Positions 29,531-52,419 of a DNA stretch of 53,537 bases are shown piece after piece. Below the pieces are notes generated by a model. That model was not told where the DNA came from, made no database searches, and saw only the letters and a list, made by a program, of their open reading frames with translations. A program made the position numbers and the translations under genes. Within the stretch, counting starts at the first letter, position 1, and each line of letters opens with the position of its first letter. This DNA is from a virus (lineage: Duplodnaviria > Caudoviricetes): IMG/VR virus record IMGVR_UViG_3300009467_000020, positions 1 to 53,537 of that record; one strand, 5' to 3'.

Positions 29531-29577
29531 TGTGACATTAGGCTATATATATTAGATAGTAATAGGCTATTGTCACA
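29531..29577 (+). repeat. 47-bp inverted-repeat element, copy 1
   Basis: TGTGACATTAGGCTAT...TAGTAATAGGCTATTGTCACA; 33/47 identical, ungapped, to the reverse complement of 52373-52419. Confidence 0.85.
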
Positions 29578-29590
29578 ATAATTAAATAAC

Positions 29591-30037
29591 ATGGAATTAA
29601 AAAAAGTAAATAAAGAAATAGAAGACCTGCAGAACTTTATAATAGCAAATAACGATAATGAAGGGTTTTATGGTGACGGAATAAGTATTGCTGAATCACC
29701 TGAAGTGCCTATAAAACATAGCTTTGCCGACCAAATATATGTAAGGCAAATGAATATGAATGCTGGTCAGGTTATTGTTGGTGCAATTCACAATCATCAG
29801 CATGTATGGTTTTTATTGACTGGACATGTATCAATAAATAACAATGGTGAGGTAATAGATTATGTAGCACCTTGTTATACGGTATCTGAGCCTGGGTCAA
29901 AAAGAGTTATATACGCACATGAAGATTCTATATTTGTTAATATACACAAGAATCCTCTAAACGTAAAAGATATAAAAGAATTAGAGGAAGAAATAGTTTC
30001 TATGAACGTAGAAGAATTTAATAAAAAAAATAAGTAA
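29591..30037 (+). CDS. cupin-fold protein
   Basis: HSFADQIYVRQM.MNAG..IVGAIHNHQHVWFLLTG...RVIYAHEDSIFVNIH. Confidence 0.75.
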   Translation: MELKKVNKEIEDLQNFIIANNDNEGFYGDGISIAESPEVPIKHSFADQIYVRQMNMNAGQVIVGAIHNHQHVWFLLTGHVSINNNGEVIDYVAPCYTVSEPGSKRVIYAHEDSIFVNIHKNPLNVKDIKELEEEIVSMNVEEFNKKNK

Positions 30038-30039
30038 AT

Positions 30040-30759
30040 ATGTCATTTGTAGTAGCGGGTATTATAGTAGGAAGTGGTCTGTTGATAAAGGGCACATCTC
30101 AGATTATTAGTGGTGCGGTAAAGAATAAAAATGCGAGAAAAGATAAGAATGAAGCACAGGTTAGACTGCTTAAAAACGAAACTAAATTAGCGCAGCTAGA
30201 GGCTTCTAGGCAAGAAATAATAAACCCATACGCAGATGTTAAGAGTCTAACTGGCGATATGTCAAATCCATTTGCTAATTTATCTGTGGCTACTGGGGCA
30301 GCAGAGATACAAATGCAACAATCGGATGCTGCATTAGCAAATACACTAGATACATTGAGAGCCACTGGAGCTGGCGGTGGTGGAGCAACAGCATTAGCAC
30401 AAGCTGCACTACAAAGTAAAAAAGGTGTTGCTGCTAGTATAGAAAGTCAAGAAGTTGCTAATCAGAAGCTAAGAGCTCAAGGGGAACAAACATTGCAGCA
30501 ATCAGTTATTAGAGAAAAAGAAAGACTTCAAGATGCTGAAATAGCAGGCTCTGGATTTATGTATTCTGAAAAAGAAAAAAGAGAGATAACTCAATTAGAT
30601 AGAACACAGAATAAAATTGATATAGCTGAATCTGACAAAAGAAATGCCGAGCAAAGGAGAAGAGATGGAAATGAAAAAGCTGCAAAAGACGTTGGAGATT
30701 TTGGAATGGAGGTTGCTAAATTTGGCATTAGTACAATTGGTAAAACAGAAAATATATAA
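30040..30759 (+). CDS. internal virion / ejection protein 1
   Basis: N-terminal hydrophobic helix, Ala/Gln-rich coil and GAGGGGATALAQAA. Confidence 0.6.
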   Translation: MSFVVAGIIVGSGLLIKGTSQIISGAVKNKNARKDKNEAQVRLLKNETKLAQLEASRQEIINPYADVKSLTGDMSNPFANLSVATGAAEIQMQQSDAALANTLDTLRATGAGGGGATALAQAALQSKKGVAASIESQEVANQKLRAQGEQTLQQSVIREKERLQDAEIAGSGFMYSEKEKREITQLDRTQNKIDIAESDKRNAEQRRRDGNEKAAKDVGDFGMEVAKFGISTIGKTENI

Positions 30760-30765
30760 AAAAAT

Positions 30766-32766
30766 ATGGGTACTTATAGAAATCCTTCATTACAAAAAGG
30801 TTATACTACTTCTAATATTAATACTGGATCTAGTAGCGCTGGAAGTGGCTTAACACAAGCCATAAATGCTCAAAGACAAAGAGCTAGGGATGCTGAAATA
30901 GCAAGCAATGCAAACTGGGAAATATATGAAAGACAACAACTTGCTGCTGGAGACTTGCAAAAGCAAATTGGTGATGCTGTCGACATTCCTCAAAAAGGTG
31001 GTGGTACTAAAGGTTTTATAAATAAAGCAAGTCTTGAAGATGCTACAAGAGATTATGTTAAGGGTATTACCGAAGCAAAAATTAGACTAGAGTCTCATGA
31101 TGGTTGGTATGATATGCTAGATGAAGACATAGCTACAGTCAGAAATAGTAAGAATGATATAGCTAGGCTTCCTGAAATATTTGGAGATTTCTCACTTGTT
31201 ATGGATAAGTTGATGACTACACAGATGGGATATGCTCCAGGTGATATTAATCCAGATGGTCTTAACCCTCATCTGCATTTAGCAAAGTTAATTGGTAATA
31301 CAACTAGTGGAATAGGAGGTGAAATTTCCTATAGAAGAAGCTATTCTGAACAAGAAGGTAGTACATGGGAAATGGTAGTTTCTGGAGAGAGTGTTGAAAA
31401 ATTAAACAAAGAGCTATATGCAAAAACTGGTGACGAAAAGTATAATAGCAACGAGTATGCCTTTAGCTATAATCAAGTTAGTGACGCAGTAGGTGATAGT
31501 GATAGCGATGAGTATACATTTGGCGGAATGTTTAACACTAATCCTAACGTTCATGCAGAAACCGAAGATTTAAAAACTGCTAATATTCTTGACAACAATA
31601 ATCAAGTAAGCAAGAGATTTATAACAACCAAGCAAGTTGTAAAGGGAAACCAAGTGTTTCAACAGGAGATGGTGGATGTCGCATCAGTTGCTAGAGAATT
31701 AAAGCCATATTCAAACGCATTTGCTAGTAGAGTTATAAATAATAACCAAGTTTTACAAGCCTTTATAACAAGTCGTGCGAGTATGCCGGCAAGTGGCGCT
31801 AGTGTAGAGCAGGTGGATGGAATGCAGCAGATTTCTTATATACCATATCAAAGAGATGAGAGCGGTAATATAAAAACAGATAAGAATGGTCGCGCTATTG
31901 AAGGTGAGAAAGTAACGCTTGGTGATAACGGTTTTTATAAGAAAATATCAAATAAAGATACACAACAATTTCAAAATTATACTAAAGAAGAGCACGATCA
32001 GATACTAAACTTTGTTCAAGATCAATTTATTAGAGATAATAACATTAATGCTAAAATAAACCCCGTATTAGATAGATCAGCAACGGATGCATTGGCTAGA
32101 AAAAATGCTGCTGATTTAAAAGAGCAAAGAAGACTACGAGCACTTGCAATTAAGCAAGGTAAAGAAAATGTGAACGAAAACATAATAACAAGCTCGCTTA
32201 TTAAAAATCTTAAGCTATATGAGGCTGGAGATCAGACTGATTTTAGTGTGCTTGAGTCATTTAAAGAAGGACTAAAATTAACTCAAGATCCAGATGACTT
32301 GAATATACACAATGTGTATAGCAGAGAAGATAAAGACGGTAATAGAAAATTCTTGTTTACTGTTGATTTAGCAGAGCCAGAACAAGCACTGCAGATGTTA
32401 TTACAACAAGGTGGTGCAAAAGCGTTTATATCTATTCCTGAAGAAAAAACTGCTACCACGCAAGATGGTATAAAACTTAGTGCTATTGTTGCTAACTTAC
32501 CAAGTGAAATTACTGAAGAAACTTTTATGGAAACATTAAGTAAGTCTAATAAAGATCTTCTTACTAAGTATGGAATTACTGTATCAGAAACAGATGTTGG
32601 AAGTGATGTACTTCTAATAACAAGAAGAGATGGTAAAACTACTGAAATTGATCTTGAAGACGGCGAGTGGAAGAATAAGTGGAGAAAAATAATGAAAGAC
32701 ATGACAGCTACTAATACAACAGCAAAAGTAGATACTCCAACTAATATTAGCGAAGCATACAAATAA
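30766..32766 (+). CDS. internal virion / ejection protein 2
   Basis: 666-aa helical protein between the small and giant internal proteins. Call is positional. Confidence 0.55.
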   Translation: MGTYRNPSLQKGYTTSNINTGSSSAGSGLTQAINAQRQRARDAEIASNANWEIYERQQLAAGDLQKQIGDAVDIPQKGGGTKGFINKASLEDATRDYVKGITEAKIRLESHDGWYDMLDEDIATVRNSKNDIARLPEIFGDFSLVMDKLMTTQMGYAPGDINPDGLNPHLHLAKLIGNTTSGIGGEISYRRSYSEQEGSTWEMVVSGESVEKLNKELYAKTGDEKYNSNEYAFSYNQVSDAVGDSDSDEYTFGGMFNTNPNVHAETEDLKTANILDNNNQVSKRFITTKQVVKGNQVFQQEMVDVASVARELKPYSNAFASRVINNNQVLQAFITSRASMPASGASVEQVDGMQQISYIPYQRDESGNIKTDKNGRAIEGEKVTLGDNGFYKKISNKDTQQFQNYTKEEHDQILNFVQDQFIRDNNINAKINPVLDRSATDALARKNAADLKEQRRLRALAIKQGKENVNENIITSSLIKNLKLYEAGDQTDFSVLESFKEGLKLTQDPDDLNIHNVYSREDKDGNRKFLFTVDLAEPEQALQMLLQQGGAKAFISIPEEKTATTQDGIKLSAIVANLPSEITEETFMETLSKSNKDLLTKYGITVSETDVGSDVLLITRRDGKTTEIDLEDGEWKNKWRKIMKDMTATNTTAKVDTPTNISEAYK

Positions 32767-32783
32767 TAGTTAAAAATTAAAAC

Positions 32784-35700
32784 ATGAACGAAGAGTTACT
32801 TGAGCTAGGTTACAGCAAATTAGAAACCGAAAGGTCGTATGATCAATACAAAATTGACATGCAAGAAAGTGAAGAGTTGAGGAAGTTGGTTTTTAACAAG
32901 ATTGAAACTAACAAGACATACGATGAATTTATTACAGACTTATCATTTGAACCATTAGAGAAAGTATCTGATGAGATGGGAAAGTCAACTGCTGCTGTAA
33001 CAAAGGGTGCGACTACACCAGCAAGTACGGGTTTAGCATCAAAGGATGGTTCATCGGAGTCACAAGAAAAAAATACAGCAATTGAAGATACTTTTGGCAA
33101 AAACTGGCTTACTAACTTTTACGGAGATCATGTAAGAGCATATGAGCAAGGTATTGCTTCTTCTAGGCTAGTAGACCCTAGTGCTACTGTAATGTTTGAA
33201 GGTGCTGCGGCGTCTGACCAAGCTGTGATGAACCTGTTAAACCAGCTAAAAGAAAATGCTGGCATGGTAATGCAAAACGACGAAGGAGTAACATGGGATA
33301 AAGTATATGACGAAGAAGGCGGTGGTTTTTCGGGATTCTTAGCTGCCACAATGGAAGCTCCTACGGCTCTTACTAGCATGTTAGTTAGGTCTATGTCATC
33401 TCAGTTAGGTTCTGTTATGAACTCTGACTATGTAGCAGCCGCAGGCACGGCTGGCGTAGCGTTAGGTGCTACTGGTGGATCAGCATTTGGAGGAGTTGGA
33501 GCAATTCCAGGAGGTCTGGCTGTTGGAATGGGTGCTACTATGGGCATGATGGAAGCTTCACTTACATTTATTGAGCTACTACAAGAAGAAGTGGGTACTG
33601 AGTTAACGCCGAAAAATGTTAGAAGTGTACTCGAAGATCCAGATAAGTTACAAAACCTAAGATTAAGAGCAGGTGGTAGAGGTGCTGTAGTTGCGCTTAT
33701 AGAGACAGCTACTGCTGCATTATCAAAAGGAGCGGCTGGTAAGGTTTTCAGTAAGCTTGCAACACCAGCAAAGACAACTTTAACTAGAGGCTTAGGAGCG
33801 GCTACGGCAGCTACAGCAGGTACGGTAACTGAAATGGCTGGTGGTAGTCTTGGTGAGGCAGGAGGTATGCTTGTAGCAGGTCAAGATTTTAACTTTAAAG
33901 AAATAGCTTTAGAAGGCGTTGTTGGATCCGTAGGAGCAGCATACACCGCTTTACCTACTATAGTATCTAAAATACAAAAGCAAGCTGATCGTGTTGCAAT
34001 GACAAATACAGCTTTAAAAGCAAAATTTGGTAGTGCACGCGAAGTGTTTATGTCAAATGATAAAGTAGATAATGTAGCTGTTGAAATTGCATCGAAGAAA
34101 GGTAATGTTAATGCGTTTCAAGAACAACTAGATTATGACGTAGCAAATAAAAAAATAACTAAACAAGAAGCAGAGGTAATAAATAAAAACTTTTTAAATG
34201 TACGCGAGCAAAGCAAGAGATTAAAATCATTCAATCTTCAGTTTAATCAAGGAGAGATAGTTAACAAGCTAACTAAGATGGATGTCCTTAAGGAAGAAAT
34301 CAAAACAATAGATGATCCTACATTAAGTAAAGGTAAGTTTGCCGAATATGAAAGTTTAAGTGAAGAAATAGGAGTATTAGTAACAAAAGATCAGATTGAT
34401 ACTCAAATTGAAAAAATAAAAAAATTAAAAGGTAATGTAGATGGTTTAACTGTTGAAGCTCTTAGCGATTCAAATGCAGTTAGGGCTTATATAGATAAGG
34501 AGCACGCTGATAACAAAAAGTTAAAGCAAAAGAAGAATGACACAAAACAAGAAAGTGCTGAGTTTCAACAAGGCTTTATAATAGATAAAGCTGATGGATC
34601 AAAGGTAATAGTAATAAACAGAGATGTAGCTATAAAAGAAAAAGCAGTAAACATAGCTGGTCATGAGTTTTTACATGCTGTATTATTTAATACATTAAAA
34701 GCTGATGATACATTTCAAAAGAACCCTAACAAAGCAGTGGCTTTAGGTGGTAGCCTAAATGATATGCTACAAGATTTAGATAAAAATCAATTAGATGAAT
34801 CAGGATTTACACAGCGAATAGAACAGTACAAGTCGCCTGGAGATAATGCAGTTGCAGCAGAAGAGGTTATGACTGCACTATCTGATTTTCTAGCATCGGA
34901 TAAACTTAAATTTAAAGAAAACGCATTAACTAAAATTGGTGATTTTATAAGACGTAAACTTCAAGACTTTGGAGTCAACATTAAATTTGACACTAGCAAG
35001 GATGTTTATAATTTTGTAAGAGATTACAATAAAAGCATAGCCGGAACTAAAGGCTTGAATAGGGCACAGAAAAAATTAATAAAAGAAGGTGCTAAGGGTA
35101 AATTAATAGATGCCGCAAACGCAGCAACAAAAAATAAGACCAGCATAAGCGTAGATGGTGAAACAGTATCGTTCTCAAAGAAAGATCAGTCATTAAGCGA
35201 TTCAATTACTAAGTCAGTTCCAGAAGTAATGACTAAAGATGAGTGGGACTCTGTGCATAGTGGTACAGTGTACATGGATATAATTGATGGTAATAAGCTT
35301 CACGGATTAATCAGAAACGAAGTGACTAGAAGAAACGTTCCACCTGAATCTATATCTGAAGACTTCTATGAAGATGTTAAAGCAGCTTTATATGAAAAAA
35401 GTATGCTAAGGTTTGATCCAACTAAGAATGATAACGTTGGTGCATTCTTGCTGTCTGAGCTTGTTAGGTTTAGAATAGGCGATGTTGTAAATAAGTACAA
35501 AGAAAAAGGCTTATTTGAATCTACAGTAGCTGCAGATAATGCCGAGTTTGTGCAAGAAGATACAGCTAGTATGGTTGAGTTTGATGCCATAATAGAAGAT
35601 ACGGAGACTATACAACCAGAGTATCAAATTAAAGCCGCAGAAAGACTTCTAACTGATCCTGATATATTACAAGAGGCAAGGGAAACCATAGAAGATGAGA

Positions 35701-38700
35701 TGATGAATCCAGATTCTAAGAAGTTTTCTCTTAAGAAACTGCCAAACTGGGCTGCAACAGCATTAGCAAAGCAGATTACACTAGATCCTGAAAAGCCTTT
35801 TCCTGCAAAGAAAATTGTGAACCTTGGTATTAACCTTACTAAAGGTGAAATGAGAGAAGGTCAAGTATTCATTGTGAACAATGCTGAGGTGTTAATGAAG
35901 ATACTACCAGAAGGCGCAGTCTTAAAGGCCGCTAGTGATAAGTTACTTGAAACATCGACAGGCTTACCTAGTAATCTTCTTAATGCATTTTATGTAAAAA
36001 ATCCTAGGATAAGTAAAGGTCAAGGGTTAAAGCCATTTAAGAAAAGACGTGACATAACAAAAGAAGAATTTTTTAAATACTTTAATTTAGCACCTAGTGG
36101 CATACCTATTAGAGACGAAAAAGGTGAATTGCCAGACGGTAAGTCTGAAATTGGTCAGAATATAAAAGGCATGTTATCTGTATCTAGTAGGTTAATAACA
36201 AACCAACTAGTTAGGCAGATTGGCTTAAAACAAGATTATCCAATCAGTGAAAACCAGGCTCTAGATATAAGAGGTGGTACGGCTGAGATAATGTTTAGTA
36301 AGTCTAATGTTAACGGACCAATGTCTACATACGGTGATCATGATTTGCTTCTTGATGTTAGATTCTCGCTAAGAGACAATTATGTGTCAGAACTTAGATC
36401 AACTTATGATTTAGAGGTTGAACCTGCTAAGGAATATGTAGAAAATTTCTTCAAGTGGGTTGATCATAAAAAACGCCCATGGTCTGATAGTGAAAATGAA
36501 GACTTTAAGGATGAAGTTACAAAGCTAGGTTTATACTGGATAATTAAAAGTTCTGACAAGGAGAAGGCAGCTAAATTTAAAGGCAAACCTTTAAGAGAAG
36601 AAGATAGATACCAAATACCTTTAGCTCTTAGTACTGCTAATGCAAATAAAGTTGACCCATATGCTTTTAACAGTCCTGGAGAGCTATTAAATAAATTTAC
36701 TGCTGTAAAAAAAGAAGCTAAAAAACAATTAGCTCCAGATAGTCTTCCTTCTATTACAAAGTTTGGAAAAGAAGAACTAGGTATTCAATTATATACAGTT
36801 GAAGGTAGCAAACAGGGAATGTTGGATGTTAGAAAATTAAACGATTTTTATTATGGAAACAGTTTTAATGGATGGTGCATAACAAATAGACTAGACGCAG
36901 ATTCCAAAGATGTTAGAGAAGCCAATGAAGCTGCAATTAAAAAGTACGGTAAATATGCAGTGTTACAGTACGAAGATAATCTGAAAACGGCTTTAGGGTT
37001 TTGGGAAAATAACTATCCTGGCCCAAAAATGCTAGCGTTCAAAGACAATAAGTTCCTTGGTTTGCAATCAAGCCAGGGTGGGGACGTTCAGGAATGGAAC
37101 ACTAAAGAGAATAAACAGTCTGATAACCTTGAAGTTCCATCAGGCAAAAAAGAAAAAGCATCTTTTAAAGATGCAGATAGGAATGATACTAATGGTGATT
37201 TAACCATTATTGAGAAAATACCCACTTATAATATTCTAAATGAATTATTAGAAAGTGAAATTATTGACGACCCTATTGAAATCGGTAGCAACTGGAATAC
37301 CGAAAAAGTTATTTTTCCTGATAAAGCCTTCATATCTGGCTACGAACAAAAGATTCGCAAAGGTGGAAATCTTATTAAAAGAACTTTTGACACAGATAAA
37401 GTTTTAAAAAAAGAAGTTACTACTAAAAAAGGCATAAGAGTAAAAGATCATACTATTAGTAAAGTTACTGGTTCTAGATTCCATTTTTTTAGAATTGGAC
37501 GACAAGGTGAACTTATAAAAATGGATTCTGCGACGAATGAAAATCAAGCAGAGCTTGATTATAAGCTTGAAGCTGAAGGAATGTCTAATCAGTTTGAAAC
37601 AACAGAGTTAATTAAAGAGAGTGATAATTTAGATAAACGTGAAGATGAAAATGGTGCACCTTTAAAGGTAAAAGAAACAGAAATATCGAGAGCTTCCTCA
37701 ACCAGTAAATCAAATTTATCAGAAGTAGACATAGAGTATGTTGAATCTTATATTTCTACTGATATAATAACTATAATATATATAAACAGTCCTAACAGTC
37801 CTACGCCGGTGGAAGTAATAACGAGTAGAATAGAGGACCAAGAAGTAGGAGACGCTAGACATACTATTGTTTACAAGCAAATTAATGGAAAAAAATATCT
37901 TAGTAAAATGGAGATTTTAGGGTCTCATCTTCCTGAGCATAAAAACGCTAGAGAAGAATTAATAAGAAACTTAGGCATAGAACCGACTATTGAATATTAC
38001 GAAGAAATCGCAAAGATTGATGCAAATGGGAATTTTAAAAATGCAAAAGGTGTATTTAGTGCGTATAAGTATTATAGAGATGTGGAGATACCAAAATATA
38101 CGGGGTTTAATGTATACAAGTTTAAAGCATTTAGTCGTGAAACTTTAAAAGCATTAGAAAGTGAAATAGTACCACTAGATGATAATAATGTTCCTGATAT
38201 GAACCAGGAAGGTGCAGTATTATATAGTAAGAGCCTAGGGAACTCTATGGAAAAAGCAACAAAAAATAACAATAAAATGCTACCCAAGTCCAAAAGACTT
38301 AAAGGCAATTTTACTAATGATCAGGTATTAAATGTAATGTCTGAAGTAGATGATGATAGAAACGTATCTTACTCTAAATCTTATAATAAAATAAAACAGG
38401 CAGAAGATTTAAATGCAGATTACAATAAGTTAATATTAGAACCTTTAACCGGAATACCTGCTACTGATAAAATATCTGAAACTAGAGCAGAGCTAATAGG
38501 TAGAACGAAGTCTAAGGTTAGATTCTTTATTCCTCCTGCTGCTGAAGATTTTGTAGGTTTATTATATTCTACATTAGGTAAAGGTAAGGTTGGTGAAAAA
38601 CAAATGGCTTGGTATAAAGAACATTTACTAGATACATTTGCAGATGGTGCTAATAATGCTTCTACTGCAAGAACTACATTAATGCATCAGTTTAAAGTGC

Positions 38701-40433
38701 TTAAGGATCATTTAAAGGTAGTTCCTAAAGACTTGAAAAAGCAAGTACCTGGTTCTATTTTTACCAAAGAACAGGCCTTAAGAATACATATATGGAGATC
38801 GCAAGGAGATAAGATACCTGGTGTTGATGCTAGAGACTTAAGAGAGGTTGCTAAGTTTATGAATAGTGACCCAACATTAATGACATTTGCAGTTACATTA
38901 AAGAAACTTCAAAAGAGCCAAGGTGTTGATCAGTGGCAACCTCCAACAAATAGCTGGAGAGGTGGTTCCATAGAAACAGACTTATTAGCAGCTTTAAACA
39001 CTGGCGTTAGAAACAAGTACTTAAAGAAATGGCAAGACAATGTTGATATTATATTTTCTAAAGAAAATAAAAACAAACTAGAATCTGAATTTGGAAAAGG
39101 ATATGTAATAGCATTAGATAACATGTTAAATAGAATGAAGACTGGTAGAAATCGTATTGCTACTAAAGATCGTGCTACTTCAAAGTTTTTAAATTGGATC
39201 AATGGTTCTGTTGGTGCAATTATGTTTCTTAACATGCGATCTGCGTTACTACAAACAATATCAGCTGTTAACTTTATAAACTGGAGTGATAACAATGTTT
39301 TAGCCGCAGGCAGAGCATTTGCAGATATAAAGCAATATACCGCCGATTTTAAAACACTTTTTAATTCTGACTTCTTAGTTGAAAGACGTGGAGGTATGAA
39401 AATGGAAGTTACTGATTCTGAAATAGCTGATTTGGCTAAAGAAGGTGGTATGGCAGGTGCTGTTAGTAAGATATTGCAAGCAGGATTCTACCCTACAAAG
39501 CAAGCAGATAGTTTTGCAATTGCTTCTGGTGGTGCTGCATTCTATAGAAATAGAATAAACTCGCTAGTAGCTGGTGGTATGGACCTGAAGGAAGCAGAAA
39601 AACAAGCATTCCGTGATTTTAGAGAGACAGCAGAAGAATCACAGCAGTCTAGTAGACCAGATAAAATTAGTCAACAACAAGCTGGGCCAATGGGACGTGT
39701 TCTACTGGCTTTTGCAAATACGCCAGCACAATATGCAAGACTAATGAAAAAGGCAATTCTAGACCTTAAGAATGGCCGTGGCAACCCAAAGGAACATATT
39801 TCTAAGATAATATATTATGGTGTTGCTCAGAATTTACTATTTAATGCCTTGCAAGCCGCGATATTTAGCTTAGCATTTGGTGATACAGATGGTGATGATG
39901 AAGAGAACGCAAAAACAGTAAGAGTTCTTAATGGTATGGTAGATTCTATATTAAGAGGTACTGGTTTTGTTGGTGCTGGAGTATCTATAGGCAAGAATGT
40001 TATTTTAAAAATAATAGAGCAGTCAGAAAAGAAACGGCCTGATTACGCTGATATTGCATGGGAAGCTGTTAAGTTGTCACCACCGCTATCTAGTAAGATT
40101 CAAAAACTAAGAACTGCTGGTAACACTGTTTCTTATAACATGGATGAAATAAAAGAGAAGGGATTTTCATATGACAATCCAGCACTATTAGCTTCTGGCA
40201 GTGTAGTATCTTTTGCTACAAACGTACCTATGGATAGATTAATTAAGAAAATGGATCATGTAATGACAGCATCGACACAAGAGATCGAAATGTGGCAAAG
40301 AGTTGCATTACTTGCTGGTTGGGATAAGTGGTCATTAGGTTTGATTGAAAAGAAAGGAGACAAGGCTACGTTTAGACAAACCAAGGAAAGAGTAAGAAAG
40401 AGAAGACAGGATAAAAAAATAATTTGGAAATAA
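32784..40433 (+). CDS. giant internal virion polyvalent protein with a zincin metallopeptidase domain
   Basis: 2549 aa. Gly/Ala-rich hydrophobic N-terminal segments, AGHEFLHAV...AEE motif near 34662, and an ejection-protein-like C-terminus (ESQQSSRPD..SQQQ). Confidence 0.7.
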   Translation: MNEELLELGYSKLETERSYDQYKIDMQESEELRKLVFNKIETNKTYDEFITDLSFEPLEKVSDEMGKSTAAVTKGATTPASTGLASKDGSSESQEKNTAIEDTFGKNWLTNFYGDHVRAYEQGIASSRLVDPSATVMFEGAAASDQAVMNLLNQLKENAGMVMQNDEGVTWDKVYDEEGGGFSGFLAATMEAPTALTSMLVRSMSSQLGSVMNSDYVAAAGTAGVALGATGGSAFGGVGAIPGGLAVGMGATMGMMEASLTFIELLQEEVGTELTPKNVRSVLEDPDKLQNLRLRAGGRGAVVALIETATAALSKGAAGKVFSKLATPAKTTLTRGLGAATAATAGTVTEMAGGSLGEAGGMLVAGQDFNFKEIALEGVVGSVGAAYTALPTIVSKIQKQADRVAMTNTALKAKFGSAREVFMSNDKVDNVAVEIASKKGNVNAFQEQLDYDVANKKITKQEAEVINKNFLNVREQSKRLKSFNLQFNQGEIVNKLTKMDVLKEEIKTIDDPTLSKGKFAEYESLSEEIGVLVTKDQIDTQIEKIKKLKGNVDGLTVEALSDSNAVRAYIDKEHADNKKLKQKKNDTKQESAEFQQGFIIDKADGSKVIVINRDVAIKEKAVNIAGHEFLHAVLFNTLKADDTFQKNPNKAVALGGSLNDMLQDLDKNQLDESGFTQRIEQYKSPGDNAVAAEEVMTALSDFLASDKLKFKENALTKIGDFIRRKLQDFGVNIKFDTSKDVYNFVRDYNKSIAGTKGLNRAQKKLIKEGAKGKLIDAANAATKNKTSISVDGETVSFSKKDQSLSDSITKSVPEVMTKDEWDSVHSGTVYMDIIDGNKLHGLIRNEVTRRNVPPESISEDFYEDVKAALYEKSMLRFDPTKNDNVGAFLLSELVRFRIGDVVNKYKEKGLFESTVAADNAEFVQEDTASMVEFDAIIEDTETIQPEYQIKAAERLLTDPDILQEARETIEDEMMNPDSKKFSLKKLPNWAATALAKQITLDPEKPFPAKKIVNLGINLTKGEMREGQVFIVNNAEVLMKILPEGAVLKAASDKLLETSTGLPSNLLNAFYVKNPRISKGQGLKPFKKRRDITKEEFFKYFNLAPSGIPIRDEKGELPDGKSEIGQNIKGMLSVSSRLITNQLVRQIGLKQDYPISENQALDIRGGTAEIMFSKSNVNGPMSTYGDHDLLLDVRFSLRDNYVSELRSTYDLEVEPAKEYVENFFKWVDHKKRPWSDSENEDFKDEVTKLGLYWIIKSSDKEKAAKFKGKPLREEDRYQIPLALSTANANKVDPYAFNSPGELLNKFTAVKKEAKKQLAPDSLPSITKFGKEELGIQLYTVEGSKQGMLDVRKLNDFYYGNSFNGWCITNRLDADSKDVREANEAAIKKYGKYAVLQYEDNLKTALGFWENNYPGPKMLAFKDNKFLGLQSSQGGDVQEWNTKENKQSDNLEVPSGKKEKASFKDADRNDTNGDLTIIEKIPTYNILNELLESEIIDDPIEIGSNWNTEKVIFPDKAFISGYEQKIRKGGNLIKRTFDTDKVLKKEVTTKKGIRVKDHTISKVTGSRFHFFRIGRQGELIKMDSATNENQAELDYKLEAEGMSNQFETTELIKESDNLDKREDENGAPLKVKETEISRASSTSKSNLSEVDIEYVESYISTDIITIIYINSPNSPTPVEVITSRIEDQEVGDARHTIVYKQINGKKYLSKMEILGSHLPEHKNAREELIRNLGIEPTIEYYEEIAKIDANGNFKNAKGVFSAYKYYRDVEIPKYTGFNVYKFKAFSRETLKALESEIVPLDDNNVPDMNQEGAVLYSKSLGNSMEKATKNNNKMLPKSKRLKGNFTNDQVLNVMSEVDDDRNVSYSKSYNKIKQAEDLNADYNKLILEPLTGIPATDKISETRAELIGRTKSKVRFFIPPAAEDFVGLLYSTLGKGKVGEKQMAWYKEHLLDTFADGANNASTARTTLMHQFKVLKDHLKVVPKDLKKQVPGSIFTKEQALRIHIWRSQGDKIPGVDARDLREVAKFMNSDPTLMTFAVTLKKLQKSQGVDQWQPPTNSWRGGSIETDLLAALNTGVRNKYLKKWQDNVDIIFSKENKNKLESEFGKGYVIALDNMLNRMKTGRNRIATKDRATSKFLNWINGSVGAIMFLNMRSALLQTISAVNFINWSDNNVLAAGRAFADIKQYTADFKTLFNSDFLVERRGGMKMEVTDSEIADLAKEGGMAGAVSKILQAGFYPTKQADSFAIASGGAAFYRNRINSLVAGGMDLKEAEKQAFRDFRETAEESQQSSRPDKISQQQAGPMGRVLLAFANTPAQYARLMKKAILDLKNGRGNPKEHISKIIYYGVAQNLLFNALQAAIFSLAFGDTDGDDEENAKTVRVLNGMVDSILRGTGFVGAGVSIGKNVILKIIEQSEKKRPDYADIAWEAVKLSPPLSSKIQKLRTAGNTVSYNMDEIKEKGFSYDNPALLASGSVVSFATNVPMDRLIKKMDHVMTASTQEIEMWQRVALLAGWDKWSLGLIEKKGDKATFRQTKERVRKRRQDKKIIWK

Positions 40434-40437: not shown

Positions 40438-40800
40438 ATGGGAAAAATATCACCAGCATGTAAAGCTGCAGCTAAAAGAAAATACAAGGTATGGCCTAGT
40501 GCATATGCTTCAGGGTATGGAGTTAGATGTACTAAGGCTGGAGGACCTAAGATGAAGAGTAAAACAAAAGGTGGTGGAACAACGAAGGTATGTCTACCTG
40601 CGGCTAAGGTTAAGTCGATGAGCTCTTCTGAGAAAGCAAGTGTTGTAAATGCAAAGAAAAGCGCTGGACAAAGCGGAAAGAGACAAAGGTCATCTAAGAG
40701 TAATGTTAAGGGCGCAAGAAAGAAGGGCGCAACATTAAGAGACTGGTTTCAAAAAGAGAACTGGGTTAATGTATCTACTGGTAAAGAATGTGGAAAATAA
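40438..40800 (+). CDS. basic protein, DUF5872-like
   Basis: KYKVWPSAYASG and LRDWFQKENWVNV..GKECG motifs (recall). Confidence 0.7.
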   Translation: MGKISPACKAAAKRKYKVWPSAYASGYGVRCTKAGGPKMKSKTKGGGTTKVCLPAAKVKSMSSSEKASVVNAKKSAGQSGKRQRSSKSNVKGARKKGATLRDWFQKENWVNVSTGKECGK

Positions 40801-40845
40801 GGAACACAGATAATTAGGCGTACCATACCTAAAGTTCCTGTAACC

Positions 40846-40880
40846 AAAAAAGGGGAGGCCATCATAGCTTCCCCTTTTTT
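40846..40880. terminator. bidirectional Rho-independent terminator
   Basis: AAAAAAGGGGAGGC-CATCATA-GCTTCCCCTTTTTT between convergent gene arms. Confidence 0.9.
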
Positions 40881-40900
40881 AATACAAGTGTATAGCATAG

Positions 40901-44641: not shown

Positions 44642-44660
44642 ATTCCGTAAATTTTACATA

Positions 44661-44756: not shown

Positions 44757-44759
44757 ATA

Positions 44760-44963: not shown

Positions 44964-44973
44964 AATTTAACGC

Positions 44974-45000: not shown

Positions 45001-45024
45001 TTTTGTGGTATTTTATTTAGTTTA

Positions 45025-45902: not shown

Positions 45903-45904
45903 TT

Positions 45905-46666
45905 TTAGTCTTTTTGAAATGTACCATCAACCATTTTACCAGTTCTAGATTTTATTACATCATAAGCAGAAGATATACAGTCTTCAATATTATGACCTCT
46001 TAGTTTTGCTAGGTTGGTTAAAACAACAACCATATCACCAATTGCATCAATAACCTCAGGTTCATCATTCTTAAGTATAGCTTGAGCTAATTCACCAGCC
46101 TCTTCCATAAGCTTGACATATTGAGTTTTAGCATCACCAGACTTGTATATACCTTTTTCGGTAGCCCAATCTCTAATTAAATCATAAATATTAAGCTCAT
46201 GGTATTCTGTAGTTTTATTTGCGTAAAATTCTTCGTGAAACGCTTTGTTATATATAAAACACCTATTGTTATTATACATTGAAGTATTAGTATTCTTCAT
46301 GATCCAAGGTATTTTATCTATAGTTAATTCAAACTCTCCTAAGTGTGTTTCCCATGACAACCCCATAATATCCATTAATCTTCCTTTTAACTTACTTACT
46401 GGAACATCAAATGTTGTAGTTTGTTCTGTTACATTTACTTTCATATCATTTTTATTTTTTAAGTTTTTATAAAGCTGTTGATCAACCTTATAGTTATATT
46501 TTTTTTGTAATTCTACTTCTAATCTAGACACATGATCTATATCGGTAGTTTCTAATACTATCTCATATTCACCAGGCTTATAGCCTTGTTGCTTATGTAT
46601 CCTTTTTTCTGGGTTTGACGTTACGCCTATCTTCTTGCCTTTAATGTGATATAAGTAGTATTTCAT
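45905..46666 (-). CDS. MazG-like nucleotide pyrophosphohydrolase with a GIY-YIG-like N-terminus
   Basis: C-terminal KLMEEAGELA...DAIGD; N-terminal YYLYH...KIGVT.NPEKR. Confidence 0.8.
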   Translation of the reverse strand: MKYYLYHIKGKKIGVTSNPEKRIHKQQGYKPGEYEIVLETTDIDHVSRLEVELQKKYNYKVDQQLYKNLKNKNDMKVNVTEQTTTFDVPVSKLKGRLMDIMGLSWETHLGEFELTIDKIPWIMKNTNTSMYNNNRCFIYNKAFHEEFYANKTTEYHELNIYDLIRDWATEKGIYKSGDAKTQYVKLMEEAGELAQAILKNDEPEVIDAIGDMVVVLTNLAKLRGHNIEDCISSAYDVIKSRTGKMVDGTFQKD

Positions 46667-46670
46667 ATTA

Positions 46671-47324
46671 CTATAGTTTATTGTTATACAAATGTAAGTT
46701 ATGTGCGTGATGGTAATAAGTTCCTACTGCATATCCGGTCATTTTAGATACCAAACCTTGCAATAATGAAAAACAGTATTGATCATTGCAGAAACCGTAC
46801 CAGATGTCATTAGAACGCATATAGACAGACATGTTAAGTCTATCATTTAATACTGTAAATTGAATCGCGTATGTGCAAGGAGTATCTTTAGTATACTTGC
46901 AAGCCTCTTTGCCATCGTATATACTTATAGCAGCTTTTCTAGTATTAGGATTATTTTTTAGTAGATTAACCACATGATCTAACTGTGATACATTCATACT
47001 TTTTCTTTGCCATTGGTAACCATAGTTAGAATTAACTACGCCAAATTTATCACACATGCTCTGCCATATCTTAGGTATTTTACCGTATATAAGACCTAGT
47101 GCTTTTACATTAGGTTCACCAGTTAAATACCACTGCCATTCTGCTTCCGCATACTTTTCATTCCATGCTCGATCAGCAGAGTGTATAGCATTATCCAGTG
47201 GGTCTTCTATAGTGAACCCAACATTAAATAAAGCTTTTGTATTGTCGAAATCTACACCTTCAGTTATAATCCTATCCATTAGGTAGGTATAAGCTTCATC
47301 AGCGTTTTTAAATTTATTTCTCAT
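46671..47324 (-). CDS. thymidylate synthase-fold enzyme, dCMP hydroxymethylase-like
   Basis: NSNYG, TRKA, DTPCT, MRSNDIWYGFCND and HNLHLY; Asp at the ThyA Asn177-equivalent position. Confidence 0.8.
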   Translation of the reverse strand: MRNKFKNADEAYTYLMDRIITEGVDFDNTKALFNVGFTIEDPLDNAIHSADRAWNEKYAEAEWQWYLTGEPNVKALGLIYGKIPKIWQSMCDKFGVVNSNYGYQWQRKSMNVSQLDHVVNLLKNNPNTRKAAISIYDGKEACKYTKDTPCTYAIQFTVLNDRLNMSVYMRSNDIWYGFCNDQYCFSLLQGLVSKMTGYAVGTYYHHAHNLHLYNNKL

Positions 47325-47328
47325 ATTA

Positions 47329-47607
47329 TTAATTTACAAATATAGTTGACTTTTTATACTTATCGTAGTAGTATGCGTAATATTCGTGTAACTGTTTCCA
47401 AATAATATCTTTACCGTATAAATTAGGTGATTTGTTTTTTTTACCACTTATATTTATTTCTATATACCACTTGCCACTAATATCTGCAACTGGATATATA
47501 GTTATATTATTATTCATGCACCATTTACTAGCGGCATACTCGTGATTAGTAGGCATATAAGTACCCATTTTCCATTGCTTACTACTAGTTTTCATTATGC
47601 TTCCCAA
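47329..47607 (-). CDS. hypothetical protein
   Basis: 92-aa ORF with WCMNNNITIYPV, in the replication operon. Confidence 0.7.
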   Translation of the reverse strand: MGSIMKTSSKQWKMGTYMPTNHEYAASKWCMNNNITIYPVADISGKWYIEINISGKKNKSPNLYGKDIIWKQLHEYYAYYYDKYKKSTIFVN

Positions 47608-49316: not shown

Positions 49317-49343
49317 AGGTATGTGTATTTAATTTAAGTTATT

Positions 49344-49661
49344 TTAAAACGGTAGATCATCGCTAGCTGCTGGTGCCGCTGCTGCAGTTGCTCGAGGAGC
49401 ATTGCTGTCTTCTCTAGGTGCTGCTGACACGTTATTACCATTTGTCCATACAACTTTAACGTTGCCTAAATAAACCTTACTAGCTTTAGCATCGCGCTCA
49501 TCTTTAGATTGCTCAACTATAACTGGTCCTTGATTACCATAGTTATCTAAATCATCATTCAATGTAATAACGATAGGTAGGTACGAACCTTTTTTTCCCT
49601 TATAGATCTTTTCTTTAGGGATGTCATTCAAATTAATGTTTGCCTTAATAATACTAGCCAT
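49344..49661 (-). CDS. putative single-stranded DNA-binding protein
   Basis: Short beta-rich core, Ala-rich linker and C-terminal DDLPF. Confidence 0.7.
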   Translation of the reverse strand: MASIIKANINLNDIPKEKIYKGKKGSYLPIVITLNDDLDNYGNQGPVIVEQSKDERDAKASKVYLGNVKVVWTNGNNVSAAPREDSNAPRATAAAAPAASDDLPF

Positions 49662-49681
49662 AATGTAATTGTGTTTGTGTA

Positions 49682-50416: not shown

Positions 50417-50417
50417 A

Positions 50418-50957
50418 TTACAATGTATTAAGTTCTGTTTCTATATCTTTAGAAAGCTTATACTTAGATTTTATAGCTGAAACCTTACCACCTGATTTTA
50501 TGTAATCAACTGCTTTATGATACGCAGGATCAGTTTTAGACGTCAGTGTAGTCTTTGCTGATGCTCCGTGATCATTACTAGCATCACTATCAGCTGTATC
50601 ATCTATTAAAAATAGATTACCAAGAGCATATTTCTTAGCATAAGATGATGCACTTCCAAATTGCTGAGGAGTTTGCATACCCTTTTGATTAAGATCAATA
50701 CCAACTACAGCTGTCGCATGTATAGCATCTACGCCATCACTTATTGTTGCTGTTGTTTCTAGTATAGGTATAGGCTCATAACTAACTAACTTTTCATTAA
50801 TAGTTACTGATACACCTAATTCTAATAAGAAGGGTTTTGTAGCTTCTAAAATATCTTCAGCACTTCTGAAGTAATACTTACCGAATGAGTTAAATCTACT
50901 TTTTTTTGATTTAAACTTTGTTTGAACTGTTGCCAGCTTTTCATTAATTTTACTCAT
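50418..50957 (-). CDS. ERF-family single-strand annealing protein
   Basis: NSFGKYYFRSAEDIL and GSASSYAKKYALGNLFLIDD..DSD. Confidence 0.9.
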   Translation of the reverse strand: MSKINEKLATVQTKFKSKKSRFNSFGKYYFRSAEDILEATKPFLLELGVSVTINEKLVSYEPIPILETTATISDGVDAIHATAVVGIDLNQKGMQTPQQFGSASSYAKKYALGNLFLIDDTADSDASNDHGASAKTTLTSKTDPAYHKAVDYIKSGGKVSAIKSKYKLSKDIETELNTL

Positions 50958-50976
50958 ATATATATAATTTAATTAT

Positions 50977-51732
50977 TTACAAATAATCGATCACTTGCGA
51001 ATGATCTACCTTTTCTATTAAAGATTCAACAGCTTGCTTTTTTAATTCAGAGACTCTTATATGATTACTAGTACCATTTAAGCCTAATATGCTAGCTATT
51101 TCTTTAGCAGAATGCTTTTCACAATCTAAGCCATAAGATAATCTTAATACCTCATACTCATTACCAGATAGATGTTTATTCATTATTCCAGTTAAATAAG
51201 AATTAAGTATTGCAATATTATATGGCTCAGAGTCGTCTATAATATTATGGTATAATGTTTCACCATTACCATCGGTAGTAACACTGTCAATGCTAAGGAA
51301 TATAGAATTAAAGAACATTTCAACCATTTTTTTATCATTAGGATTCTTACGCATTTCATTTCGTTTATGTTCGGGTATTTTTATATCCCCCCTATTGATG
51401 TCTATACGTCGTCTAATGGCCCCTTTTATTCGTTTTGATAAGAAGGACTTTAATGTCTTTTCGATGTCATCTGAATCATTTAAACGCCTATAGTCTATTT
51501 TGTCTACGGCTCTTACTAGAGCTTCTGCTCCTATTTGGATCAAGTCATTAATACTTAATACTCCAATAGATTGCTGTGACGTAGGAAACTTACGTGCTAA
51601 ATTTTCTACTAAAGGTAGAAACTTTACTATTAATTCATCTCTTTCATATTCCATCCATAACTTTGGATCTGGCATAGACTCTACTAAGTCTTTTTTATAC
51701 CGAATGTAATTTTGTACATTATAATTTTTCAT
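50977..51732 (-). CDS. phage sigma-70-family sigma factor
   Basis: Region 2 LPLVENLARKF...DLIQIG..ALVRAVDK; region 4 LSGNEYEVLRLSYGL...KEIASILG...RVSELKKQA. Confidence 0.85.
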   Translation of the reverse strand: MKNYNVQNYIRYKKDLVESMPDPKLWMEYERDELIVKFLPLVENLARKFPTSQQSIGVLSINDLIQIGAEALVRAVDKIDYRRLNDSDDIEKTLKSFLSKRIKGAIRRRIDINRGDIKIPEHKRNEMRKNPNDKKMVEMFFNSIFLSIDSVTTDGNGETLYHNIIDDSEPYNIAILNSYLTGIMNKHLSGNEYEVLRLSYGLDCEKHSAKEIASILGLNGTSNHIRVSELKKQAVESLIEKVDHSQVIDYL

Positions 51733-51744
51733 TTAGTAACATAA

Positions 51745-52380
51745 TTAAGTTTTGTCTGACCATAATTCTTGGTTCAACAATTCTTTTTCTTTTTTCAGTT
51801 CATTGCCTATGTTTCTATGAATGGTTCTGCTACTGCAACTAAGTAATCGTGCTAAAGCACTTATAGTTATTTTTTTACCATTGTCATTTATTTCTAACAT
51901 GCACTGATATATATCATCCTGATGAATACTTTTACTCCTACCTATCATCTTACCTACTATTTGTAGTTTTTGTTCTTTAGTAAGACCGCAGAAAGGTTTA
52001 AAAATTATCTTACGAAGTTTATTTTTAGGCTGTACTTCTAAATCGTACATGCTAACTTCGTATATCATATCTCTAAGAACTTGTTCAGATATTGTAAATG
52101 TAACAAATCCATTCATTTTATCAGAAATAAATTTTGATATACTCTCGAATACATCTTGATTAAGATCAGAGTTTAAATACCATATAACTAACATGTGCCA
52201 TTTCAATGATCTAAAAGTATTTATTTTAGCTTCATTCTTGAACAAGTCATAGCATTGGTATGTACCAAACTCATAATAATAACCCCAGTCAAAGACTTTT
52301 GTAGGTATATCAGTAGTAGGTAATCTTCTATAGATTATTCTATTATTGTTTAAGTATTCTATGTTTCTATTGTATGACAT
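51745..52380 (-). CDS. DNA-binding protein with C-terminal HTH (possible replication initiator or regulator)
   Basis: KITISALARLLSCSSRTIHRN HTH; start codon lies inside IR element copy 2. Confidence 0.7.
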   Translation of the reverse strand: MSYNRNIEYLNNNRIIYRRLPTTDIPTKVFDWGYYYEFGTYQCYDLFKNEAKINTFRSLKWHMLVIWYLNSDLNQDVFESISKFISDKMNGFVTFTISEQVLRDMIYEVSMYDLEVQPKNKLRKIIFKPFCGLTKEQKLQIVGKMIGRSKSIHQDDIYQCMLEINDNGKKITISALARLLSCSSRTIHRNIGNELKKEKELLNQELWSDKT

Positions 52381-52419
52381 AAGCCTGTTACTAGTCTATC
52401 TTAATATGCTATTGTCACA
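52373..52419 (-). repeat. 47-bp inverted-repeat element, copy 2
   Basis: Minus strand reads TGTGACAATAGCATATTAAGATAGACTAGTAACAGGCTTATGTCATA. Confidence 0.85.

What the first reader, a model, noticed from the sequence alone, without database searches (positions are those of the whole stretch)
29531..52419. Paired 47-bp TGTGACA..TGTCACA elements, one on the start codon of an HTH gene, near-symmetric about the arm junction
Seen: copy 1 (29531-29577, +) and copy 2 (52373-52419, -) have the same length, match at 33/47 positions without gaps, and share dyad ends plus an asymmetric TAGTAAYAGGCT core. Copy 2 fills the gap between two genes, containing the upstream TGA and the ATG of the HTH gene 51745-52380. 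The copies are inverted relative to each other and lie about 11.3 and 11.5 kb either side of the bidirectional terminator. Inference: the HTH protein binds these sites, autoregulating itself and acting at the ejection-gene block. They could be operators, twin replication origins or genome-entry checkpoints, or recombination sites that flip the 22.8-kb segment between them.
Basis: partly seen in the sequence, partly recalled or inferred. Interest (0 to 1): 0.8.

Follow-up and report, generated by a model that had tools for sequence, protein, structure and literature searches.

The report
Conserved palindromic phage control sites
The two 47-base palindromes are real members of a conserved family of control sites that sit at the heads of gene blocks in a group of uncultured aquatic phages, one always lying on the start codon of a DNA-binding regulator gene that probably uses it to control itself.

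Summary
There are two 47-bp TGTGACA..TGTCAYA elements, inverted, 33/47 identical, and the only two in the window. The motif is strongly conserved. All 80 related IMG/VR loci encoding the HTH protein carry such a site at the gene's head, and in 70 the start codon is embedded in it. Relatives hold 2-5 sites, all intergenic and directional, at the head of the structural arm and inside the early region.

The arms do not co-vary, so this is a sequence-specific protein-binding dyad, not a hairpin. The HTH gene is always followed by a sigma-factor gene.

Best reading: a phage-specific promoter-operator element. Copy 2 would autoregulate the HTH-sigma operon.

Copy 1 is not conserved. It sits in a roughly 76-bp insertion absent from 34/34 relatives carrying the downstream gene and from five whole relatives. 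The symmetry about the terminator is therefore coincidental. Twin origins and inversion are not supported.

Binding and transcription starts were not tested. The available RNA data were contigs only.

The parts
52373..52419 (-). Copy 2: a 47-bp imperfect palindrome at the head of the HTH-sigma operon. Its better-conserved 'alpha' arm holds the ATG of the HTH gene (52378-52380).
   Evidence: A homologous site is present at the gene head in 80/80 relatives, and the start codon is embedded in 70/80.
29531..29577 (+). Copy 1: a 47-bp palindrome. Its alpha arm lies 14 nt upstream of the ATG of gene 29591-30037.
   Evidence: It has the same polarity as the structural-arm sites of relatives. It most resembles the sites that precede the KQKLSP gene in L140 and L182 (55 and 60 of 81 aligned positions, against 54 for copy 2).
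29511..29590 (+). An 80-nt intergenic stretch, of which about 76 bp is a lineage-specific insertion: a T9A7 run, copy 1, and 13 nt. Relatives have only 4 nt between the stop codon and the ATG here.
   Evidence: 0 of 34 loci with the downstream gene have a site, and the closest, at 90% and 81% protein identity, have a 4-nt spacer.
51745..52380 (-). Gene for a 211-aa protein with a novel N-terminal domain and a C-terminal three-helix HTH. It is the candidate binder of the palindromes.
   Evidence: Pfam HTH_11 is sub-threshold. The AlphaFold model has pLDDT 90. Residues 149-211 resemble TetR-type DNA-binding domains at Z 5-6. The family is virus-only in the ESM Atlas.
50977..51732 (-). Gene for a 251-aa sigma-70-family factor, immediately downstream of the HTH gene.
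   Evidence: phrog_351 at 1.7e-20. TIGR02937 scores 46.1 bits against a cut-off of 42.9. It is adjacent to the HTH gene in 5/5 whole relatives.
53422..53441 (-). An orphan single arm (half-site) inside the dCMP-deaminase ORF. No partner arm lies at the normal spacing.
   Evidence: 24.1 bits, the second-best arm score in the window. Its function is unknown.
29591..30037 (+). First gene downstream of copy 1 (148 aa), resembling a short tail fibre.
   Evidence: phrog_12032 at 7.9e-25.
2..250 (+). The 5'-truncated first ORF of the contig (..KQKLSPKAAK..). In 12 related contigs its homologue is the first gene, 36-75 nt after a palindrome. A third full site is therefore predicted just upstream of window position 1.
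40801..40900 (.). Convergence point of the two arms, with a hairpin flanked by an A-run and a T-run (bidirectional terminator-like).
   Evidence: The sequence is shown, and GC skew changes sign here. The simple scan did not call it.
52415..52576 (-). A 53-aa ORF whose TGA stop lies inside the distal arm of copy 2. Whether it is coding is unknown.

Best explanation
The two elements belong to a conserved family of 45-48-bp imperfect palindromes. Each arm has invariant GAC, TAG and TA positions, and the centre is AT-rich. In this clade of uncultured podophages, whose structural genes relate to phages of Flavobacteriia, the palindromes mark the 5' heads of transcription units.

I read them as phage-specific promoter-operator elements. 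A dimeric (or higher-order) phage-encoded DNA-binding protein recognises the dyad. The most probable binder is the 206-217-aa HTH protein whose gene always begins inside one of the sites. Transcription would leave the element on its better-conserved 'alpha' side. It would probably be carried out by host RNA polymerase directed by the phage sigma factor encoded by the next gene.

Copy 2 is then the autoregulatory site of the HTH-sigma operon. Its messenger would start at or within a few bases of the ATG, so it would be leaderless or nearly so. Copy 1 is a recently inserted extra copy of the type that heads the structural arm. It gives the tail-fibre-like gene and the block behind it their own regulated start.

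**Shown:** the conservation, the positions, the directionality, the lack of hairpin covariation, the insertion, and the sigma-family membership of the neighbouring gene.

**Inferred:** which protein binds, that transcription starts there, and the sign of regulation.
For: 1. **Conservation with the HTH gene.** 80/80 HTH loci carry a site at the gene head. In 70/80 the embedded ATG or TTG opens the 205-217-aa ORF. In L081, L083 and L085 the real ATG is 25 nt further downstream. In L036, L038 and L041 two ORFs, one of them HNH-like, are inserted between the site and the gene, yet the site stays at the head of the unit. The DNA element is therefore conserved independently of coding.
2. **Genome-wide specificity.** 27/30 whole related records match a strict pattern. 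A backwards-read control gives 0 in all 30.
3. **Position.** All 43 non-HTH sites are intergenic.
4. **Directionality.** The alpha arm lies 0-86 nt before the first gene of a unit. In one case, L107, it lies 40 nt before a tRNA-Met gene. 42 of 43 non-HTH sites point along structural-arm transcription, with 1 tie. The HTH site points into its own operon. 36/43 sites have an A-tract outside the distal arm, against 26/43 with a T-tract outside the alpha arm.
5. **Protein dyad, not hairpin.** Arm-to-arm agreement at variable positions equals the shuffled expectation, and fold energies are weak at -3 to -22 kcal/mol.
6. **Candidate factors.** The HTH domain is predicted. A true sigma-70-family gene lies adjacent in 5/5 whole relatives.
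7. **Co-occurrence.** Three more distant phages, with portal proteins 40-51% identical, have 0/3 sites. Two of the three have no HTH homologue.
8. **Portability.** Copy 1 arrived as a compact insert in front of a gene, as a portable start signal would.
9. **Parallel case.** In Cellulophaga phage phi14:2, middle promoters sit at the arm junction and before the block holding the virion polymerase. I read passages of bioRxiv 10.1101/2020.03.07.982082 and the upstream sequences.
Against: - There are no binding data and no transcript 5' ends. The RNA runs found are assembled contigs of relatives and cannot show starts.
- A 47-bp span with about 20-bp arms is unusually long for one HTH dimer.
- The second early-region site of relatives lies directly after a stop codon, and no gene follows its alpha side. 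A simple promoter model does not explain this.
- Many sites are flanked by an A-run on one side and a T-run on the other, as a bidirectional terminator would be.
- Another phage or host protein could be the binder. The recognition helix and the invariant arm bases are both nearly constant, so no protein-DNA co-variation could be sought.
- The sites do not contain the host-type -7 box TAnnTTTG (a motif I recall, not one returned by any search). That box is seen elsewhere in the window.
Confidence: 0.55

Rival explanations
1. Pure phage-sigma promoter. The element is simply the promoter recognised by host core polymerase with the phage sigma factor. The distal TGTGAC with its A-tract serves as the upstream element. 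The AGTAAnnGGCTA box serves as the downstream element, and the start lies near the embedded ATG. In this reading the HTH protein does not bind the element.
For: - The sites are directional, have an A-tract upstream of the distal arm (36/43), and sit at the heads of both long arms.
- The sigma gene is conserved next door.
- There is no room for another promoter between the site and the first structural-arm gene, which starts 18-75 nt away.
- The giant ORF shows no polymerase motif, so the phage may depend on its own sigma.
Against: - The outer alpha arm would lie downstream of the start. It is still conserved where it is non-coding (L081, L083, L085 and all non-HTH sites).
- Full dyad symmetry is not expected of a sigma promoter.
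- The second early-region site has no gene on its alpha side.
Confidence: 0.2
2. Structure-forming element. The inverted repeat acts as a hairpin or cruciform. It could be a bidirectional intrinsic terminator or insulator between gene blocks, or an N4-style hairpin promoter for an injected polymerase.
For: - A-run and T-run flanks are present.
- The second early-region site of relatives sits 4-17 nt after the last stop codon of a gene block.
- Some copies fold better than their shuffles, with z down to -7.
Against: - No compensatory change is seen. Arm agreement at variable positions equals the shuffled expectation in 42 non-HTH and 60 HTH sites.
- Most fold energies are weak, at -3 to -10 kcal/mol.
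- The phage uses an ordinary GC-rich hairpin at the arm convergence.
- The HTH site is followed at once by coding sequence.
- No polymerase motif was found in the giant ORF.
Confidence: 0.07
3. Replication origin or initiator sites. The HTH protein is an origin-binding protein that also represses its own gene, as plasmid Rep proteins do. The palindromes would mark origins.
For: - In relatives the junction site is followed by a T/A run and 2-3 direct repeats of about 22-35 bp, an iteron-like arrangement.
- The HTH gene heads the module holding ERF, an exonuclease and a primase-helicase.
Against: - GC skew has no inflection at 29.5 or 52.4 kb.
- Copy 1 is a recent insert in the middle of the structural arm.
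- The sites number 2-5 per genome and are tied to gene starts.
- Among the listed fold-search hits, none resembles an initiator protein.
Confidence: 0.08
4. Selfish miniature palindromic element. A MITE-like unit spreads through intergenic DNA with no regulatory role.
For: - Copy 1 is a compact insert with terminal inverted repeats. TAATT occurs on both sides of it, which could be a short duplication (this is an inference).
- Copy number varies from 2 to 5 among relatives.
Against: - Position and orientation are strictly constrained: 42/43 sites share the same polarity.
- One copy is fixed on the HTH start codon in 80/80 loci at 56-70% protein identity.
- The copies within a genome are diverged (33/47 here), not near-identical.
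Confidence: 0.05
5. Recombination sites. A site-specific recombinase flips the 22.8-kb segment between the two copies.
For: The two copies are inverted relative to each other.
Against: - Relatives lack copy 1.
- Arm order and orientation are the same in 5/5 whole relatives.
- No recombinase family appears among the ORFs scanned.
- The HTH protein has no serine-recombinase-like hit among the listed fold matches.
Confidence: 0.02

Closest known systems
Autoregulated phage regulators whose operator overlaps the start of their own, often leaderless, message. The lambda cI/PRM-OR arrangement is the textbook case (recalled, not tested here).
   Same: A dyad-symmetric site lies at the 5' end of the regulator's own gene, and further copies of the operator control neighbouring divergent units.
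   Different: The site here is 45-48 bp with about 20-bp arms rather than about 17 bp. The start codon lies inside the operator arm. The protein has no detectable relation to cI/Cro, with no Pfam, PHROG or NCBIfam family above threshold. The regulator is co-transcribed with a sigma factor.
Middle promoters of the crAss-like Cellulophaga phage phi14:2 (bioRxiv 10.1101/2020.03.07.982082; passages read).
   Same: A conserved extended motif with an A-tract sits at the arm junction and in front of the block leading to the giant virion protein. It is sometimes found in front of tRNA genes.
   Different: The phi14:2 motif is of host type, an A-tract followed by TTGAC-like and TAnnTTTG-like boxes, and is read by host polymerase. 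The motif here is a palindrome without that -7 box, in phages that carry their own sigma factor.
The phi29 p4 early-to-late switch and portable promoter cassettes of T4-type phages (both recalled, not tested here).
   Same: In phi29, dimer-binding inverted repeats with A-tracts lie between divergent early and late units. In T4-type phages, compact regulatory cassettes can be gained in front of genes.
   Different: There is no sequence or fold relation to p4. Mobility here rests on a single inferred insertion event.
N4 hairpin promoters for the virion RNA polymerase (recalled).
   Same: Several inverted-repeat elements lie in the early region of a podophage that encodes a giant virion protein.
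   Different: There is no arm covariation. The arms are about 20 bp rather than 5-7 bp. No polymerase motif was found in the giant ORF.

Membership tests
Dyad operator of an autoregulated HTH regulator | Inverted-repeat symmetry conserved at the sequence level, not as base pairing | tested here: met
   The half-site consensus has invariant GAC, TAG and TA in both arms. There is no covariation between arms.
Dyad operator of an autoregulated HTH regulator | The site overlaps the promoter or start of the regulator's own gene across relatives | tested here: met
   80/80 loci carry a site at the gene head, and 70/80 have the start codon embedded in it.
Dyad operator of an autoregulated HTH regulator | The regulator binds the site | not testable with these tools
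   This needs EMSA or footprinting.
Pfam HTH_11 (PF08279) | Score at or above the curated cut-off | tested here: not met
   20.7 bits against a cut-off of 25. The HTH assignment rests instead on the model (pLDDT 90) and on Z 5-6 matches of residues 149-211 to TetR-type DNA-binding domains.
Sigma-70 family (the neighbouring gene) | Score at or above the curated cut-off of a sigma-70 family model | tested here: met
   TIGR02937 scores 46.1 against 42.9, and phrog_351 scores 1.7e-20. Pfam regions 2 and 4 are both sub-threshold.
Host (Bacteroidota-type) promoter | A -7 box TAnnTTTG about 20 nt downstream of a TTG (motif recalled) | tested here: not met
   No TAnnTTTG lies inside either copy. The list of all such boxes in the window has none at 29531-29577 or 52373-52419.
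Hairpin promoter or intrinsic terminator | A stem maintained by compensatory changes, and a stable GC-rich stem | tested here: not met
   Observed arm agreement equals the shuffled expectation at all variable positions, and most energies are -3 to -10 kcal/mol.
Hairpin promoter or intrinsic terminator | A T-run directly after the stem | tested here: inconclusive
   A T-rich flank lies outside the alpha arm in 26/43 sites, and an A-rich flank lies outside the distal arm in 36/43.
Invertible segment (Hin/Gin-type) | A serine recombinase encoded nearby | tested here: inconclusive
   No recombinase family appears among the ORFs scanned, and none is among the fold matches of the HTH protein. Small ORFs and the missing roughly 10 kb were not scanned.
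Invertible segment (Hin/Gin-type) | A pair of inverted sites conserved around the segment | tested here: not met
   Copy 1 is absent from 5/5 whole relatives and from 34/34 loci with the downstream gene.
Iteron-type replication origin | Tandem direct repeats and a skew inflection at the site | tested here: not met
   There are no direct repeats at either window copy and no skew change there. Iteron-like repeats do exist beside the junction site of relatives, a region missing from this contig.
Crassvirales-like virion module | Muzzle protein C-terminal domain | tested here: met
   PF25729 scores 37.4 bits against a cut-off of 27 in 27492-29510.
Crassvirales-like virion module | A giant virion RNA polymerase with the DFDxD catalytic motif | tested here: not met
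   A regular expression for D[FYW]DxD finds nothing in the 2549-aa ORF, and the ORF has no Pfam hit.

The most novel reading that the evidence does not exclude
A large, virus-only clade of aquatic podophages runs its temporal programme with a self-contained two-gene switch, made of a novel HTH protein and its own sigma factor, together with one long directional palindrome. That palindrome serves as promoter and operator at once. It heads every major gene block, places the master regulator's start codon inside the operator (giving a leaderless message), and can be copied to new places in the genome to rewire expression, as it was at 29.5 kb in this phage.
Probability: 0.3. Interest if true: 0.65.

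Novelty: new variant of a known kind. Interest (0 to 1): 0.45.

Why it matters
Transcription control in phages of Bacteroidota is known for very few cases. For phi14:2, only a host-type middle promoter was found, and no motif was found for its early genes.

Here a sharply defined cis-element, a candidate binder and a phage sigma factor co-occur across at least 100 environmental genomes. The HTH family forms dozens of virus-only clusters, each with hundreds of members. Together these give a testable regulatory circuit for an abundant uncultured phage group.

They also give a practical marker for operon heads and for annotating the true start of the regulator gene. The copy-1 insertion is a clean natural example of regulatory rewiring by gain of a whole site.

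The finding is not a new principle. Operators on a regulator's own gene and phage-specific promoters are both classical.

Tried and rejected
**RNA evidence.** The run search found only small shares (0.05-0.10) in RNA libraries, all kept as assembled contigs. Laying four of them showed pieces mostly under 95% alike, which are relatives, and no table of molecule starts. Nothing can be said about transcript ends or about parts without cover.

**Dimer prediction.** Two jobs with alignment A1 and two copies failed. A run without an alignment returned 'no answer', with a score of 0.00. This is no evidence either way.

**Fold searches.** Foldseek against PDB gave nothing at E <= 0.001. The wide VIA search matched only the C-terminal 60 residues. 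The N-terminal domain remains unassigned, and I did not fold it alone.

**Sequence searches of the HTH protein.**
- The PDB profile search gave only E 0.36 to SlmA.
- There was no PHROG or NCBIfam family.
- There was no tblastn match in 50,697 GenBank phage records, for either the HTH or the sigma protein.

**RNA families.** Rfam on the window and 14 loci found only tRNAs.

**Literature.** Four full-text searches found no description of this motif or of the HTH-sigma pair. Supplementary files, such as the promoter lists of the phi14:2 paper, are closed and might bear on this.

**Ideas rejected**
- Hairpin or cruciform.
- Twin origins.
- Inversion.
- Conserved symmetry about the terminator.
- A link between contig ends and sites: only 1 of 9 whole-contig loci has a site within 100 nt of an end.

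**Inversion in the DNA runs.** I could not test this.

Full report
**What the window is.** The window is a linear IMG/VR virus record of 53,537 bp, estimated 83% complete, with 35% G+C.
- Genes run rightward from 1 to 40,800. They include GroEL, lectin-like and virion proteins, a protein with the crAss muzzle C-terminal domain, and a 2549-aa giant ORF.
- Genes run leftward from 53,486 to 40,901. In order of transcription they encode dCMP deaminase, the HTH protein, a sigma factor, ERF, a PD-(D/E)XK nuclease, primase-helicase, thymidylate synthase, MazG and ribonucleotide reductase.
- The portal protein is 40-51% identical to those of phages of Flavobacterium, Cellulophaga, Tenacibaculum and Maribacter (87 records). 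A host in the Flavobacteriia is therefore an inference.
- The giant ORF has no Pfam hit and no D[FYW]DxD motif, so I do not call it a virion polymerase.

**The observation.** It is correct.
- The pattern occurs only at 29531-29577 and 52373-52419, against 0.01 expected.
- The copies are 33/47 identical without gaps when copy 2 is read on the minus strand.
- The ATG of the 211-aa ORF lies inside copy 2.
- The 'upstream TGA' closes only a 53-aa ORF.
- An arm model built from relatives alone finds the four arms plus one orphan arm at 53422-53441, inside the deaminase gene. It scores 24.1 bits, against a randomised maximum of 23.4 in 60 trials.

**Conservation.** A search of IMG/VR with the HTH protein found 103 relatives, of which 80 loci were kept, at 56-70% identity.
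- Every one of the 80 has a palindrome of the same design at the head of the gene.
- In 70 of them the embedded ATG or TTG opens the 205-217-aa ORF.
- In three loci the real ATG lies 25 nt further downstream.
- In three others a small HTH-like ORF and an HNH-like ORF are inserted between the site and the gene. The site nevertheless stays at the head of the unit.
- The element is therefore conserved as DNA, not merely as codons.
- In 30 whole related records, a strict two-arm pattern hits 27, with 1 to 6 matches each counting both strands. The same pattern read backwards hits none.

**Anatomy.**
- Sites are 45-48 bp, mostly 46-47.
- Each arm, read inward, has invariant GAC (positions 4-6), TAG (9-11) and TA (17-18).
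- The arms are not equal. One, the 'alpha' arm, is well conserved through position 20 and is the arm that holds the ATG at the HTH gene. The other is more variable.
- 36 of 43 non-HTH sites have an A-tract just outside the variable arm. 26 of 43 have a T-tract outside the alpha arm.
- At the variable positions, the two arms of a site agree no more often than arms of different sites do. Predicted hairpins are weak.
- This points to sequence-specific recognition of double-stranded DNA by a symmetric protein assembly, and argues against a hairpin, cruciform or terminator.

**Positions in relatives.** I fetched five relatives whole and the relevant regions of 18 more.
- All 43 non-HTH sites are intergenic.
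- One class sits between the first gene of the structural arm and the divergent early genes. Its alpha arm lies 18-75 nt before the first structural-arm gene, and in one genome 40 nt before a tRNA-Met gene.
- A second class lies 1.2-3 kb inside the early arm, directly after a stop codon, and is followed by 150-500 nt of conserved non-coding DNA.
- Polarity is uniform. 42 of 43 non-HTH sites, with one tie, point along structural-arm transcription, and the HTH site points into its own operon.
- The window's truncated first ORF is the homologue of the first gene after such a site in 12 related contigs. A third full site is therefore predicted just outside the contig.

**Copy 1 is new.**
- None of the five whole relatives has a site anywhere in the structural arm.
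- None of 34 loci encoding a homologue of gene 29591-30037 has one upstream.
- In the closest of these, at 90% and 81% protein identity, 4 nt separate the preceding stop from the ATG. The window has 80 nt there.
- The extra roughly 76 bp is a T9A7 run, the palindrome, and 13 nt.
- With its T/A-run flank, copy 1 looks like the structural-arm-head sites of relatives.
- It follows that the equal distances of the two copies from the terminator are a coincidence of this lineage.

**Who reads the sites.**
- The HTH protein models confidently, with pLDDT 90.2. Residues 149-211 form a three-helix bundle like TetR-type DNA-binding domains, at Z 5-6.
- Residues 1-148 match nothing clearly.
- The family is virus-only and is absent from GenBank phage records.
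- The next gene is a genuine sigma-70-family factor and is adjacent in 5/5 whole relatives.
- Three more distant phages lack the sites (0/3). Two of them lack the HTH gene.

**Interpretation.** The data fit a directional promoter-operator. A dyad bound by a phage protein, most simply the HTH protein, is superimposed on a start signal read toward the alpha side, plausibly with the phage sigma. I cannot separate the roles of the two proteins, and I hold the pure sigma-promoter reading at 0.2. Origins, inversion, hairpins and selfish elements each fail at least one test, as listed under the rivals.

**Comparison with known systems.** The closest functional parallels are autoregulated phage regulators with operators on their own leaderless genes, and the middle promoters of phi14:2. 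The phi14:2 promoters occupy the same genomic positions but are of host type. This is a new variant of a known kind, not a new principle. Four literature searches found no description of this motif.

**Limits.**
- No binding or transcript-start evidence could be obtained.
- The complex prediction gave no verdict.
- The RNA runs were contigs of relatives.

Noticed in passing
window 53212-53221, 47181-47190, 40888-40897, 32314-32323 (all minus strand); many loci: The 10-mer TGCTATACAC occurs 4 times exactly in the window, always on the minus strand, where about 0.1 is expected from base composition (my estimate). It is very frequent and strand-biased in the early and replication arms of relatives, both inside genes and between them. 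No wider conserved context surrounds it.
   Followed up: partly
window 20447-20470 and 30015-30038: A perfect 24-nt inverted repeat, AT-rich with a T8/A8 run. One arm lies just upstream of gene 20481. The other forms the last codons of gene 29591-30037, just before gene 30040. I estimate roughly a 1% chance of such a match, and its meaning is unknown.
   Followed up: no
G001 about 40735-40860 (L088); L106, L107, L110, L112, L114, L115 beside their junction sites: In relatives the junction palindrome is followed, on the early-gene side, by a T/A run and 2-3 direct repeats of about 22-35 bp, which look like iterons or tandem promoters. This region is missing from the window's contig.
   Followed up: partly
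L106-L122, the 150-500 nt after the second early-region site: Conserved non-coding blocks are shared among genomes and are followed by the first gene of the next early block. There is no Rfam match. They could be a leader, a non-coding RNA or an early promoter region.
   Followed up: partly
L036, L038, L041 positions 2061-3019: A 143-aa ORF with an HTH-like C-terminus and a 174-aa HNH-endonuclease-like ORF are inserted exactly between the palindrome and the HTH gene. The HTH gene has acquired a new N-terminus there. This looks like a homing-type insertion at the conserved site.
   Followed up: partly
L107 1577-1648 (minus strand): A tRNA-Met gene is the first gene after the alpha arm of the junction palindrome in one relative.
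   Followed up: yes
window 53500-53507 (minus strand): A host-type -7 box (TAATTTTG) lies about 14 nt upstream of the dCMP-deaminase ATG, at the very end of the contig. Another (TATATTTG) lies before the thymidylate-synthase gene near 47337. Some leftward genes therefore appear to have ordinary host promoters.
   Followed up: no
window 32784-40433: The 2549-aa ORF has no Pfam family, only a PHROG of unknown function over residues 94-511, and no DFDxD-like motif. It may not be a virion RNA polymerase, despite the crAss-like muzzle domain in the gene two ORFs upstream.
   Followed up: partly
NC_055854 19187-20053 (L128 5188-6054): Flavobacterium phage elemoE gp54 (288 aa, annotated hypothetical) matches the middle of the HTH-family profile, positions 52-180, at E 8e-7. 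It sits just after that phage's arm divergence, and the phage has no palindromes. It is a possible distant relative of the N-terminal domain.
   Followed up: no
window 45905-46666: One ORF combines a T5orf172/GIY-YIG-like N-terminal part with a MazG pyrophosphohydrolase C-terminal part.
   Followed up: no
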